A DNA stretch of 64,000 bases from Candidatus Micrarchaeota archaeon (GTDB lineage Archaea; Micrarchaeota; Micrarchaeia; Anstonellales; Bilamarchaeaceae), in NCBI GenBank assembly GCA_043827025.1, contig JBDRPL010000032.1, positions 45,870-109,869 on the forward strand. The letters are read 5' to 3'. Numbering within the stretch: position 1 is the first letter of the stretch; every line of letters starts with the position of its first letter. Below, in pieces: positions 18,001 through 24,000 of this stretch. Position numbers: made by a program.

Positions 18001-21000
18001 TACAGAAATCAAGGCCACGTTCTTTCAAGATTACTTGGAGATGGGATCCTGGATGCGTGTGGCAACTTGCCTCCTAGAGAGGTTTCACTTTTCAAAATAA
18101 TGGAGAGGGCTCTTTCTTCTATATCTGGAGAAGTAACTGCGGATATGGGAACCACTGTTCTTCTGGCGCTTGTTTTTCCTGATGGAAATTTTGAGGTCAT
18201 CAGCAGAGGCGATAGTGGAGTATATTTCCGTACTTCTAAGTCGCTCAATTGCCTTTTTGACCATGAGAATGTTAGGAATGATGAGAATGTTATCGTTCCT
18301 GTAGTTGGCATGGCCTTTATGGATTATGCTGATAGTAGGCATGCAGTTGTTGATTCGGTAATCTCAGGCCGCTTGGATATGGAAAAGGTAAGGTCTAATT
18401 TTGGGCGGATGTCACAAGGAAATGTCGTTTTGCTTGCAACGGATGGAGTCACAAAGAATCTTGGCATTATCCTTGATTCAGAGCTTCGCGTTCTGCATGC
18501 AAGCGGGTCCCAGGATTTATGCGACTACTTGCAAGTCATAGATGGTGCTTCTGCGATTAGGGACAGCGTGGACACATTGGTGATCTCTCGTCTTCAGCTT
18601 CCACACAGAATAGAAGATGGAATAGGCTACGCTCCAGACAAGGATGACAGAGCAATTATCGTCATCTCTCGTGATTAGAATCATTAACCTCTTCATCCAT
18701 TATTTCTTTTAATCTTTCCAAGGATCTCTGAGGCGTTTCTATGGTATTCAATAGGTAAACAGGCAATTTCTCGAACAGCTTTTTGAAGAACTCTGTTCTT
18801 TCTTGCATTTTTTCCTTTGTCCTTACCAATTGGTGAGGGTTGCAGAACTCGTGCTCCTTCATGAATGTTATTGCCTCATTTGTTTTCATTTTCTTTATGG
18901 GAGATAGGGTTTTGTCCCTTGTGAGCAGTACAATTGCTTTCATTGTTGACTGCGACTTTATCCTGTCATATCCAAATATATTCTTCACATCAACAATTGC
19001 CCTTCCTTTATTGTCTAGCTTTGCCTCTGCAACTACTCTGCCGTATGCCTTCCAGTTCTTCGCCAAGTCGTCGCGTATATACGAATTCTTTTCAGCAGAA
19101 CTTGCAAGAACCGAAGTTTTTCCAATCCTCACAAAGAACCAGTCGTCTGTCAGGAAATTGTTCTTTTCATCAAGCAGCAGTCCGTATGTCAATGTTGTCT
19201 TCCCGCTTTTGCTCGGGCCGATTACTCCAATACCCCTGCCATCGCTGTCGATATATGATCCATGTATGGAGTATCTCTTGTGCTCGCTTTGAAAGTCTTC
19301 CATGTAGTCTGCTGCAAGTGCAAGGGCAATGCTTTTCACCCAACCATAATAATCACAGTTCTGTATTATGACTGTTTTTGATGCAGGCTCGTACATTACT
19401 TTGAATTTACCTCCTTCATCTACTGCAACAAGTCTTGCATGAGGCCTTATGGTTTCAAGCATCGATTTGAAGTTTTCCTCCCACATATCCTTGAATCCAT
19501 GTGAGTTTGTGAACAGCTTTATGCACAGGCCGTATATCTCAGCTTTGACTTCATATGGGCATGAAGGATATAATTTAGCAAGCAGTTTATCCTTTTTCTT
19601 CTTTGATATGATTTCGACTTTGTAGTCCATAAAGAACAAGCACTATTAATGTTTTTAAGCTCTAGCCCTAATGCTTTCTTTTCATTGTCTTTTTAGTTAT
19701 TTTAAGCATAAAATGTGCAAATAAACTGTAAATTTATAAACAGACAGTTGAAATGCACATGTTTTCTGTGGTAAATTATATCTAGTAGTTATGTAGTCAA
19801 TTAAAGCCCAAGGGTAAGGTATGAGGCTTAGACACGAACAGGCCAATTCAGTTTTACGAACCAACAGGCATACTTTTGGAGAGAGCCTGAAAACAACTGC
19901 AGTAAGAGCATGGCGTTCTGCAAAGAGATTCGGAGCTGGTTTATTAGTTGCTGGACTGATCACTGCACCATGTGCTGGGGCGATGGTTGGTTGTGCTGAT
20001 AATCAGACAAATCATACACAACAAGGGGACGGGTCTCAGATACCAAAAACAGCAACGTGGAGAGAACCTTATAAAGGAAAAGTATCCTATGACGAAAATG
20101 GAAATCCGTATATGGCAAATCGATTTATTGTCACATTTACAAAACAAACCAACAGAAGCGAAGTTGAAAGTTTAATAAGAGATTTTGCAGGAAGAATTAC
20201 TGGCCAAATTCCTTCAATAAATATGTTCGAGATCGAAACAAAAGACATAGAAGTTGGAATTGCTGCCATGAGTAAAGCAGATCATGTGGACTTTTCTAAT
20301 AGAAATTATTATTTTAAGACTGAAACTGCAAGCGAATGGGACAACGATACTTATACTGGAAATAATAGTGCCGGTTTATGGTGGACAGATAAAATACAAC
20401 TAGCTCAAGGAACGAACCTGTTTGATTCTTTACAAGTTACATTAAGACCAACAACAATTGCAGTGATAGATGTGGGATTTAATTTAGGATCGCCCTCTCC
20501 AGGCCAGCCAGAAATTCCATATGTGGATTCAGTCTATCATTTTGATTTTGGTGATTGGGATACCAATGTTCATTATGACATAAATCATAGCTATGGAACA
20601 AATGTTTCATCTTTTATTGCAGCAATCAATAATGGTTTTCGCACGAATGGTGTTGCTTCTTTAAAAAAGGGTGGCACATTTAAAATTCTCCCACTAAAAA
20701 TAGCAGCAACAAATCCTGATTTTCTAAGACAAGTTGTAGATAATACGTGGGGTATTGATGATGTATGGGGTGACGTTCATAGTTGGGTAGCTGCCCTAGA
20801 ATATGTTCGGGACAATAGAACTACATTAAATATCTCAGTGGTAAATCTTAGTATAGGGATTTACCTGGAATTGCCCAAGAGACTTCCCATGCTTCCACCA
20901 CAAACTTCTAAGATTATAGGTGAATTAATTGGAAATGGAGTTATTTTAGTCGCGGCAGCAGGCAACAATAATCAAAATCTATGTAGTGGAATTTTTGAAA

Positions 21001-24000
21001 GCATATGGAGTAGAATAAATCCAGGATCTCTACCTGGAATTATTGCAGTAGGGGCAACAGAAATCAAAGAAGATGAAGAAAAAAGAGCATCATTTTCCAA
21101 TTTCTCTGACAGAGAAGAATGTTTGACTGTGGTAGCACCAGGAGCAAAATTATTAGTCTTCGATAGAAGCGGTAATCCGTATTTAGATAGTGGAACATCG
21201 TATTCGTCACCTATAGTAGCAGGTCTAGTAGCAGTCATGAAGTCCATAAATCCTTATCTGACTAACGAAGAAATAGTGCGACTCCTGAAAGACAATGCAG
21301 ATGGCATAATTTTAAATGAAGAAAACGAATCAGTTCCAGAAGCTAGAGGAACCTGGAAAAGGATTAATGTTTATGCAACACTAAGAGCAATGCTTCAAGA
21401 AGAACAACCTCATCAATGCTATCTTGTGAAGAAAATGGAACATGCAGGTGACATTCCACACTCGTTATTCCATACCAACCTGAAACTAACTGCTGACAAA
21501 CTCCTCTTTAATGTCTATGATGTTCCAGGAACCCCCGCCCAAAATTGGTATGTTTATGATTTGATTACTGGGCAGATTTCGCCATCGCCTTTTGGCGCTC
21601 AGGTCTGGCCTTTTAATTCAGATTTAGCGTATTTAGATGATAAAATTATATATAAAGATAAAAGTCAGCTTAAAATCATGGATAGACAAACAGGTCAGAT
21701 CAAAGTTATAGAAGGTTACGACATGGAAGGATATGACGGTGCCACAAAGATTTCAGTTAGAGAATTCTATGTTTCAGGAGATAAAATATTAATTGGCGCA
21801 AGTACGGATATTTACTCTGAAGCTAGTGGTTATCCATATGCTGTAAATTATGTATATGATGTCAAAAGTGAGGAATTGACTAGACTTGCATATGGGGACT
21901 GGAGATCTTATATTCCACGTGCTGCAGATATAGATGGAAATAACGTTCTTATAGATTATTATAAAAGATCTTCTGGAGACTGGTGCGAAGGAGGTGGACA
22001 GCCAGGTAGAAATAATCTGCATCAGTTGGTTTTGACTGACATTAGTACTTTGGAATCAAGAACGCTTCTTAGTCTTTTACCGCCACATGGATGTCAGTCG
22101 GATGCTGAGATATCTAGAAACTATCTTCTTTATTCATCTTATGATGAAACAACTGCTTTCCTGAGACTTTATAATTTAGTGACTGCAGAATCAAGAGTTA
22201 TTGCCCAAACTCCGTATAATGGTTTTGATGATCATGGTGACGTAATGCAAAATGGATTAGATCTGAAACTTTTTATGCACGACATGGATGAAGGACGTAT
22301 GATCATAGGAATGAACTACGCAATGACTTTAGATGGTTCACAAGTTTACGTATATGATCCTGTTCAAAATAAGACAGTGACCTTGTGGGAAAAAACGTCT
22401 TCAACAAGAGTATCTGGAGTCAGTATACAAGGAAGGAAAGCTGCATTTATAAGTGAATACATTAGCAGAGGCGGATCTCTAGATCCAAAAGATGAAACAA
22501 GCATTTATCTATGCAATTTTTAAAGATTAAATAGGAGGTTAAAGCATGAACTGGAAAAAAACGTTTCAAGTTTCTAATGTTTTCAATATTCTATTCCTGT
22601 TAGCGGTAGTAGGTTTATTTATTTTATCTGCATTGGATATTTCAATCCTCTTTCTGGTAAATCTCTTCGTTTTCTTTCCTTTGCTGATATATTTTGGATA
22701 TAAAGCAAGACAGAAGTTCAATATCAACTCTATGGAAATACTCAAAATGATAATTCCTTTGATCTTGATTATGGTATTGTTGTTTTATGCCAGTGCTTCC
22801 ATATATTATAAAAGCCCATATTATATTCAGGTGCCTTTTAATTATACTTTTTTCATTGTCGTATTTGGTGTTTTTGAAACGATAATACTTTTCATGTTTG
22901 GGTCTCTGTTTGGTTATCTGCTTTATCCTAGTATTAAGGATAGTTCCACTAGAAAGTACGGATTGTTCATTGCATATTTCATATTAATGTTCTATTTACT
23001 GTACGCCTCTGGAATCATTGAATTTGTTATTCCAACTCTCAATGATAATATAAAATTTGATGTACACAGGCAATTTTCTGGAAGCGAGTCAGGATTTTTA
23101 CTTTATGTAGAAACCGATAAGATATATCCTTGCATGAATTACTATTTACGACATAACCTGGAAGTCAATAGTCGCATCATAAAAGTAGGTTTAGGAGATG
23201 TTTCAGAATCAAGCCTATGTTTTACTGCTCTTGGACCAGCATCTTTCACTGAAAATTTGGATCTAAAAGATGGCAATTACACGCTTGAATTTGTTTCAGC
23301 AAATGGGATGGATAGCTATCATTTAATTGTTGATAAAACGAACATAAGTGTTTCACAGATAAGGTCTACATTTTCAACCTATGAAAATAAACAGTGAGCT
23401 AGACTATCAAAAGGTTTTACTATGAAAAAAGAAGAACATAAAACAAGAAACCTGATAATTTCGTTTTTCTTAATCCCAATATTGTTTCTATTGGTAAGCT
23501 TCGTAGTTTTGGTACTAGGAGGATTACTGAGTAATATCCTTCCCTCATTGAATTTTCCATTCTCAGTATTACTCTTTTTTGCAGCCATCCTATCATCCAG
23601 TTTTGGAGCGTATGTCTTGATTGGAGCCATAAACAGAGACCAAAGAAAATGGATCATGAAGAATCTGATAAAACTTTATTTGTTTCTTGGCATATTTTTC
23701 ATTTTCATATATATAATTTTACCGAATATGCTACTTAGATTATATGGCCCAAATATTGATTGTACTGAACATGTTGGAGTACCCAACTATTACAATGGAG
23801 TAAGCTTCTGTAATGATCTTTCTACCTTATTTGGAGGATTAAGCCTTATTTTCTTTTTTTTAGCTATACTTAGCTATGTTGGTTATTTCCTAGGTCCAAG
23901 AACATTCAAAGAAAAGGGTTGAACCTATATATCTTCTTGCCAAAAATGTGTGCCACTTAAAGGCTTTATATTCCTTTCGCCCATTAAAACCTTATTACAT

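What a model noticed while it worked through the whole genome (the two positions that open the first line are those of the whole stretch)
19821..22523. Bipartite leader on secreted orphan proteins
All eight proteins that begin M[KR]L[KR][HR] (four subtilase-family proteins such as g1354 here, plus g548, g770, g772, g1117) have a basic 18-40-residue leader in front of a second, ordinary signal or lipoprotein peptide, and soluble orphans in general have Arg-rich, acid-poor N-termini. Reading: a two-step address in which the first leader sends the protein into the host cell (perhaps through the T4SS) and the second uses the host's Sec system to place it on the host surface. Such bipartite targeting between a DPANN symbiont and its host is undescribed.
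Evidence so far: Hydrophobic stretch starts at residue 18-40 in 8 of 8 motif proteins from five unrelated families versus 91 of 1,003 others. N-terminal Arg-minus-acid content higher in 153 soluble orphans than 157 housekeeping proteins (Mann-Whitney p 4e-7; call 162). Further similar leaders on g303, g549, g559, g1087, g1128, g1245.
(Added by a program. Inside this text positions count along the whole contig: contig position 45,870 is position 1 of the stretch shown here. "Call 12" and the like, gene names such as g00115 and contig names such as C1 are that model's own, and its searches are not shown. The text may have been shortened before it was handed on; [...] marks where a part breaks off. 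The agent that wrote the report below was given it as the finding of a first reader that could run no searches.)

Follow-up and report, generated by a model that had tools for sequence, protein, structure and literature searches.

The report
Foreign-style export signals in DPANN archaeon
A tiny symbiotic archaeon puts a second, bacterial-looking kind of export signal on many of its lineage-specific proteins, some of which fold like bacterial outer-membrane pores, and no machinery to finish their export was found, so a partner cell may do it.

Summary
In detail: 8 of 8 M[KR]L[KR][HR] proteins have a 15-40-residue basic stretch before a hydrophobic core, and the window gene (a subtilase lipoprotein, catalytic His replaced by Tyr) has no later start. 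The discrete two-part address is not supported: four of the eight are paralogues, the motif is absent from most orthologues and from two relatives, and n-regions vary from 0 to 40 within single families. It is better read as one signal of a second class: basic n-region, weak Ala/Gly core, then AxA or lipobox, sometimes twin-arginine. Cargo includes a 12-stranded outer-membrane-type barrel (pLDDT 94). Omp85 was found in 0 of 171 order genomes and TatA/TatC in 4 of 176, while Tat-signal hits occur in 53 of 176. Best reading (0.40): precursors are finished by a partner's Sec/Tat/BAM, probably a diderm bacterium; the entry route is unknown. Close rival (0.35): the cell's own Sec, since its S-layer signal is equally weak. 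The scan found DPANN barrels and Tat signals before on other DNA; the link and the machinery counts are added here.

The parts
19712..19820 (+). Upstream region shared with the C33 paralogue (103 of 109 nt identical), ending in an SD-like GGTAAGG; sign of recent duplication or conversion of the promoter-plus-leader cassette
19821..22523 (+). Subtilase-family lipoprotein gene, 900 aa, with a class-II export signal
19821..19928 (+). Basic n-region, residues 1-36, beginning MRLRH; residues 19-36 form a basic amphipathic helix (moment 0.61, shuffle p 0.013)
19929..19994 (+). Weak Ala/Gly-rich h-region (best 10-residue KD 2.25) ending in lipobox MVGC (Cys58 at 19992-19994; Cys column kept in at least 90% of 12 family members)
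20451..21299 (+). Peptidase S8 domain, residues 211-493; Asp217, Asn382 and Ser460 present
20592..20594 (+). Tyr258 (TAT) at the catalytic His column; His in the other 11 of 12 family members; the same letters in contigs of runs X2 and X4, a study other than the possible source
21400..22520 (+). C-terminal region without Pfam match, poorly alignable between paralogues; beta-rich repeats are my inference, not tested
60912..63512 (+). Paralogous subtilase lipoprotein, 866 aa, n-region 40, begins MKLKH, catalytic His intact; inserted behind a ribosomal-protein run

Best explanation
These N-termini are one extended signal peptide of a second class, distinct from the short, very hydrophobic signals on most native exported proteins: a basic, often amphipathic n-region of free length, a weak Ala/Gly core, then AxA or a lipobox, in some relatives with an S/T-RRxFL motif. 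SHOWN: the class exists, recurs across the family and sits on lineage-specific cargo that includes outer-membrane-type barrels; Omp85 and (nearly always) Tat were not found in the order. INFERRED: the precursor is made in the archaeon, passes uncleaved into an attached partner cell by an unknown route (VirB4/Ced-like machine, tube or cytoplasmic bridge), and the partner's Sec or Tat, lipoprotein pathway and BAM place it in the partner's envelope; the partner is probably a diderm bacterium. The window protein would be a lipid-anchored, probably inactive subtilase on that envelope. The long n-region may slow capture by the archaeon's own SRP/Sec, but it is not a fixed address.
For: Two classes: among 100 lipobox proteins of three genomes, one threshold and nearest ATG, 9 long-n have median KD 2.25 vs 3.23 for 91 short-n (p 6e-6; 3 of the 9 are paralogues). 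Barrel: G000 C30 protein folds as 12 strands, pLDDT 94, top PDB match PcoB (E 1e-5, TM 0.57); 106 of 133 family members end in F/W/Y; found in 8 of 401 phylum genomes, one of them a single-contig genome. A second long-leader protein (C26) has a C-terminal region with TM 0.52-0.57 to outer-membrane barrel families. Omp85 0 of 171. TatC and TatA over cut-off in the same 4 of 176 genomes; TIGR01409 over cut-off in 53 of 176, and 0 of the 3 Tat-less control genomes. Of the 30 best loci inspected, 24 are N-terminal twin-Arg signals with a Met, 22 of them in genomes without detected TatC (my reading); 26 of 30 have Micrarchaeota-like flanks. In a TPR family found by its mature domain (41 of 176 genomes), RRxF[LIV] is in 4 of 26 complete non-query N-termini vs 0.06-0.10 expected, with 0 KK/KR/RK versions, scattered on the tree. 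No TatC among 51 membrane proteins of G100 by full Pfam scan. Sequon obs/exp: 1.15 long class, 0.99 Tat cargo, 0.79 TPR family vs 1.96 native short signals. Lytic transglycosylase hits over cut-off in 49 of 176 genomes, many weak.
Against: The native S-layer protein has an equally weak Ala/Gly core (KD 2.28), so such cores do not exclude the own Sec; SRP54/FtsY are present. The genome search missed this genome's STT3-like gene, so a diverged TatC or Omp85 could be missed too; 14 of the 51 G100 proteins had no family. G000's own TIGR01409 hit is internal and false, and G000 has no twin-Arg signal by my rule. Sequon contrast is weak in G000 (1.14 vs 1.28) and the barrel family has 1.54. Enrichment of long basic signals among orphans was p 0.012 in G000, p 0.36 in G100, p 0.035 in G093. 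RRxF may be an inherited, decaying trait; the shuffles do not test that. OmpA domains are nearly absent (1 of 176); G000 has no SLT hit. The cultured host shown in the paper read is an archaeon (PMC11329633). No expression or localisation data.
Confidence: 0.4

Rival explanations
1. Extended signal peptides for the archaeon's own Sec pathway: the long basic n-region slows or reroutes export (as in autotransporter long signals), and the cargo goes to its own surface, contact site or an unrecognised outer layer; barrels insert by an unknown or spontaneous route.
For: S-layer signal has the same weak core; SRP present; native lipobox proteins are common; long signal sequences act through the own Sec in autotransporters (PMC2805444, abstract); an inner and outer membrane was once proposed for Micrarchaeota (10.1101/2021.04.28.441871, passages); family searches can miss diverged genes.
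Against: Does not explain consensus RRxFL signals where TatA and TatC are not found, nor conserved C-terminal aromatic ends without Omp85; G000 encodes an S-layer protein and A. harzensis has an S-layer over one membrane.
Confidence: 0.35
2. One reading: a discrete N-terminal leader (M[KR]L[KR][HR]...) addresses the protein to the T4SS-like machine; a second signal then uses the host's Sec.
For: 8 of 8 motif proteins have the architecture; leader plus signal is 54-75% identical between paralogues vs 39-44% in the catalytic domain; small N-terminal charge shift in soluble orphans of three genomes; a VirB4/TraG-like ATPase exists.
Against: Motif absent from 9 of 9 non-G000 family representatives and present in one further cluster member, P0185; 0 in G100 and G093; leader HMM gives only weak hits in 4 of 175 other genomes, one of them a plausible signal; barrel family n-region median 6, 96 of 127 at most 9; paralogue similarity extends to synonymous sites and 103 of 109 upstream nt, pointing to conversion; no motif protein is soluble.
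Confidence: 0.12
3. No special route: bacterial-derived genes kept or are losing their old Sec/Tat signals, and fast-evolving orphans gain basic N-terminal extensions neutrally; the motif is a post hoc artefact.
For: Motif chosen after the fact and genome-specific; Atlas look-alikes of the barrel are Bacteroidota and phage clusters; long-class genes have lower GC3 (0.33 vs 0.41); one paralogue is truncated and one lacks the catalytic His.
Against: Families are old and confined to the lineage where labelled (subtilases: Micrarchaeota; TPR family 41 of 98 genomes of one family; barrels 25-51% identical across 133 sequences with 9 near-invariant columns); signals stay complete at 30-45% identity.
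Confidence: 0.13

Closest known systems
Long signal sequences of autotransporters and two-partner secretion (ESPR; PMC2805444, abstract)
   Same: N-terminal extension before an n-h-c signal, on envelope proteins including barrels
   Different: Those have a conserved extension and use the own Sec and BAM; here the extension is unconserved, no Pfam/NCBIfam signal model matched, and Omp85 was not found
Twin-arginine (Tat) signal peptides, TIGR01409/PF10518
   Same: Long n-region, weak h-region; in relatives the exact S/T-RRxFL motif
   Different: The window protein has KR-FG, not RRxFL; 172 of 176 genomes lack detectable TatA/TatC
Phage-encoded outer-membrane barrels such as lambda Lom (10.64898/2026.10.24.761521, passages)
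   Same: A parasite encodes signal-peptide barrels for a host's outer membrane; phage proteins are the nearest viral folds
   Different: Phage genes are expressed inside the host; here the genes lie singly among archaeal housekeeping genes and several have a TATA-like box at the native -31 to -28 spacing, so the protein or its message must cross between cells
Bipartite thylakoid-lumen transit peptides (recalled, no call)
   Same: Basic first part, then a Sec or Tat signal read by a bacterial-type translocase
   Different: There the first part is obligatory and cleaved; here it is dispensable within families
Subtilase S8 family, fervidolysin/thermitase-like with propeptide (PF00082, PF22148)
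   Same: Domain order signal-propeptide-S8; Asp, Asn, Ser kept
   Different: Lineage-specific lipoprotein subfamily; catalytic His is Tyr in the window copy

Membership tests
Subtilase S8 | S8 domain above Pfam cut-off | tested here: met
   81.9 bits vs 21.8
Active subtilase | Asp-His-Ser triad | tested here: not met
   His column is Tyr258; 11 of 12 relatives have His
Lipoprotein signal | h-region ending in lipobox with conserved Cys | tested here: met
   MVGC, Cys58 nearly invariant
Lipoprotein signal | Lipidation and cleavage at Cys | not testable with these tools
   needs proteomics
Tat substrate (window protein) | S/T-RRxFLK motif | tested here: not met
   SAKRFG; no TIGR01409 hit on it
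Tat substrate (relatives' class-II proteins) | RRxF motif before h-region | tested here: met
   24 of 30 loci; 4 of 26 vs about 0.1 expected
Tat substrate (relatives' class-II proteins) | TatA and TatC in the same genome | tested here: not met
   4 of 176; 0 of 51 in G100; diverged copies not excluded
Outer-membrane beta-barrel (C30 protein, outside the window) | Even-stranded barrel fold, cleavable signal, aromatic C-terminus | tested here: met
   12 strands, pLDDT 94, PcoB/OmpG/KdgM matches
Outer-membrane beta-barrel (C30 protein, outside the window) | Omp85/BamA insertase in the producing cell | tested here: not met
   0 of 171
Outer-membrane beta-barrel (C30 protein, outside the window) | Resides in a membrane | not tested
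   lipid-facing surface of the model was not measured
ESPR / YSIRK / KxYKxGKxW extended signals | Conserved extension motif | tested here: not met
   no such model matched the 8 proteins
Bipartite targeting peptide | First part conserved and required across orthologues | tested here: not met
T4SS effector | Translocation by a VirB4/VirD4 machine | not testable with these tools
   one VirB4/HerA-like ATPase found; substrate unknown

The most novel reading that the evidence does not exclude
This family of Micrarchaeota lives on diderm bacteria and installs its own barrels, lipoproteins and proteases in the host envelope by handing over uncleaved precursors whose signals are read by the host's Sec, Tat, lipoprotein and BAM systems; class-II signals would then list the effector set of each genome and point to the host type.
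Probability: 0.35. Interest if true: 0.92.

Novelty: new variant of a known kind. Interest (0 to 1): 0.72.

Why it matters
Hosts of most DPANN archaea are unknown, and the cultured pairs in the papers read are archaeon-archaeon. A signal class that needs Tat and BAM, which these cells seem to lack, gives a sequence-level handle on host type and on how an archaeal symbiont changes its host's surface, and it can be tested in E. coli with reporter fusions. Even under the rival reading it marks a second export route and barrel biogenesis without Omp85 in archaea. Ten literature searches listed no paper describing either; subscription journals are largely outside that library.

Tried and rejected
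Single-sequence fold of the barrel failed (pLDDT 31); solved with a 133-sequence alignment. Leader HMM over 176 genomes gave weak hits only. One search used different hydrophobicity thresholds for the two classes, so its KD p-value is not relied on; one search repeats it with one threshold. A crude strand-alternation scan for barrels returned mostly helical membrane proteins and was dropped. 'G000 lacks AglB' was withdrawn after one search found a full-length 39% homologue. The dibasic-xF control in three genomes was too small (1 RR, 2 KK, 1 RK). tblastn of the barrel in annotated phages: no match; the viral-contig scan could not use the alignment. No RNA holder listed. Too-early start rejected for the window gene, the C33 paralogue and C19:5349. 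Contamination is unlikely: genes lie among archaeal housekeeping genes. G093 was analysed in part (0.8 Mb for gene calls, 1.2 Mb for motif scans, of 1.57 Mb). Supplements were not read for any paper; their protein tables may bear on the novelty claim.
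Full report
1. The gene. Window 19821-22523 encodes 900 aa with a Pfam S8 domain at residues 211-493. It starts one codon after an in-frame stop, and the next possible start is Met55, behind the hydrophobic core, so the 36-residue basic n-region is real if the core and the MVGC lipobox are used. The genome (G000, 1.33 Mb, 91.6% complete) holds three paralogues, one in the window at 60912-63512 and one truncated at 164 aa. Named relatives are Micrarchaeota. 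The catalytic His column holds Tyr258 in this copy only, 1 of 12, and contigs of runs X2 and X4 read the same letters, so it is probably an inactive allele and not an assembly error.

2. The observation. Eight proteins begin with the motif and 8 of 8 have h-onset at 15-40. They are five independent cases. Leader plus signal is 54-75% identical between paralogues against 39-44% in the catalytic domain, but codon identity is raised too and 103 of 109 upstream bases are shared with the C33 copy, which points to conversion or cassette duplication as much as to selection. Looser rules find more long basic signals without the motif. The N-terminal charge shift of soluble orphans replicates in three genomes but amounts to about one charge per 30 residues, and Arg alone is not significant in G000.

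3. The motif is not an address. None of 9 family representatives from other genomes begins with it, though one further cluster member does; most keep a basic n-region and the lipobox Cys. It starts no called gene in G100 or in the part of G093 analysed. An HMM of the leader finds only weak hits in 4 of 175 other genomes. In a barrel family of 133 sequences the n-region has median 6 and is 14 or longer in 20 of 127; in a TPR family it runs from 4 to 33. What recurs next to the core is a basic amphipathic helix (shuffle p below 0.05 in 10 of 14 leaders, several related).

4. A second class of signal. With one threshold and the nearest ATG, lipobox proteins of three genomes split into 91 with short n-regions and strong cores (median KD 3.23) and 9 with n-regions of 12 or more and weak Ala/Gly cores (2.25). 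Long basic signals were enriched among orphans in G000 (11 of 433 vs 3 of 548) and G093 (7 of 209 vs 2 of 305) but not clearly in G100 (6 of 279 vs 6 of 536). Short-n versions of the weak class exist in G000 too. Against over-reading: the native S-layer protein has the same weak core.

5. The cargo. One long-leader protein (C30, 226 aa) folds as a 12-stranded barrel at pLDDT 94; its best solved matches are PcoB, EspP, OmpT and OmpG, its Atlas look-alikes Bacteroidota and phage clusters. The family has 342 representatives at E 0.001; 106 of the 133 aligned end in an aromatic residue. Few carry names: Woesearchaeota, Nanoarchaeota, Ca. ainarchaeum and one 'bacterium'. It is in 8 of 401 phylum genomes, all of family f1. 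C26:18743 has a barrel-like C-terminal region (TM 0.52-0.57), one motif protein has a weak OMP_b-brl hit (E 0.054), and C9:54126 looks similar by eye only. Omp85 was found in 0 of 171 order genomes.

6. Twin-arginine signals without Tat. TatC and TatA pass their cut-offs in the same 4 of 176 genomes. TIGR01409 passes in 53 of 176; among 14 controls it rings in the 11 that have TatC and in none of the other 3. Of the 30 best loci, I read 24 as N-terminal twin-Arg signals with a Met within 50 codons, 22 in genomes without detected TatC; 2 lack a Met, 1 has RG, 3 are false. G000's own hit is internal and false. To avoid selection by the motif I searched with a mature TPR domain (41 of 176 genomes; 30 loci read): RRxF[LIV] stands in 4 of 26 complete non-query N-termini against 0.06-0.10 by shuffling, with no KK, KR or RK version, on separate branches; the other members carry plain class-II or lipobox signals, and the two TatC-positive genomes with a complete N-terminus have non-RR versions. 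So Tat-like and long basic signals are interchangeable forms of one class. A second family kept RR in 2 of 4. Caveat: the same search tool missed G000's STT3-like gene. A full Pfam scan of 51 four-to-eight-helix proteins of G100 (2 more skipped at region borders) found no TatC, with 14 unassigned.

7. Side evidence. Sequons are enriched about twofold behind native short signals in G100 and G093 but not in class-II cargo (1.15, 0.99, 0.79, subtilases 1.13); G000 shows little contrast and the barrels give 1.54. Lytic transglycosylase hits occur in 49 of 176 genomes over cut-off, many partial, none in G000; one strong case has a class-II signal. Peptidoglycan hydrolases are reported as prominent in Nanoarchaeota (PMC12352652, passages). 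OmpA domains are nearly absent. Several class-II genes have a TATA-like box at the native spacing. The one VirB4-like ATPase scores best as HerA/DUF87.

8. Mechanism. Shown: the class, its cargo, and failure to detect Tat and Omp85. Inferred: synthesis in the archaeon, transfer of the uncleaved precursor to a partner, and export by the partner's systems, most simply those of a diderm bacterium (0.40). Tubes wide enough for unfolded protein link a cultured Micrarchaeota relative to its archaeal host (PMC11329633, passages), so routes other than a T4SS exist. Rivals: own Sec (0.35), discrete bipartite address (0.12), relic or drift (0.13).

9. Literature. Read as passages: 10.64898/2026.10.24.761521, PMC8047123, PMC11329633, PMC6349945, PMC13673990, PMC6098224, PMC12352652, PMC12102498, 10.1101/2021.04.28.441871; abstract only: PMC2805444; the Tat consensus comes from the listing of PMC3383694. 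No supplements were read. Ten searches listed nothing on this signal class. The thylakoid comparison is recalled. Earlier scan notes report DPANN barrels, a Tat-signal triplet and basic-tipped orphans in other genomes; I had seen the barrel and the Tat signals before reading them.

10. Verdict. Observation partly confirmed, interpretation partly supported: drop the motif and the T4SS address, keep the idea of foreign machinery as a live, testable hypothesis. Architecture is a new variant of extended signal peptides; the cross-domain use, if true, would be a new kind of system.

Noticed in passing
window 20592-20594: Catalytic His replaced by Tyr in this subtilase only (1 of 12); same letters in contigs of another study: likely pseudoprotease.
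   Followed up: yes
window 17749-18678 +: Soluble PP2C-like phosphatase (PF13672, E 7e-5) with a low-complexity N-terminal extension; candidate soluble cargo.
   Followed up: partly
window 18662-19639 -: HPr-kinase-like P-loop protein (PF07475, E 2e-6, under cut-off), divergent from the subtilase gene.
   Followed up: no
window 26422-27180 -: 252-aa orphan without Pfam match; similar N-termini on C30:21572 and C5:115609 suggest a small paralogue family.
   Followed up: no
L007:4350-10119 (G000 C19:5349-11118): Two of the eight motif genes flank the S-layer protein gene on either side.
   Followed up: no
L013:481-7314 (G000 C10:58481-65313): Two-gene unit: motif protein with weak barrel hit, then a 1613-aa Cys-rich repeat lipoprotein with a LamG domain, both with long basic signals.
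   Followed up: partly
L015:4152-11686 (G000 C26:16151-23685): Two class-II orphans (855 and 699 aa, the second barrel-like) followed by a 961-aa native-signal surface protein.
   Followed up: partly
L014:2127-2795 (G000 C9:54126-54794): Barrel-looking 222-aa orphan with a short class-II signal, 4 kb from the VirB4-like operon; two homologues at about 50%.
   Followed up: partly
L136-L139 (G091, G054, G073, G052): Only four genomes of the order carry tatA and tatC, close together and beside large twin-Arg proteins in at least one case; probably acquired modules.
   Followed up: partly
L208-L227: Lytic transglycosylases with intact-looking ES and GLMQ motifs in many genomes of the order, most without a signal peptide.
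   Followed up: partly
L205 (G046:C40): OmpA-like domain inside a frame of 2262 aa.
   Followed up: no
G000 C35:15665-18727: STT3/AglB-like gene so diverged that the family search of the genome missed it.
   Followed up: partly
P0032, P0066, P0116, P0122: Barrel-family members with a 95-150-residue N-terminal domain in place of a signal peptide.
   Followed up: no
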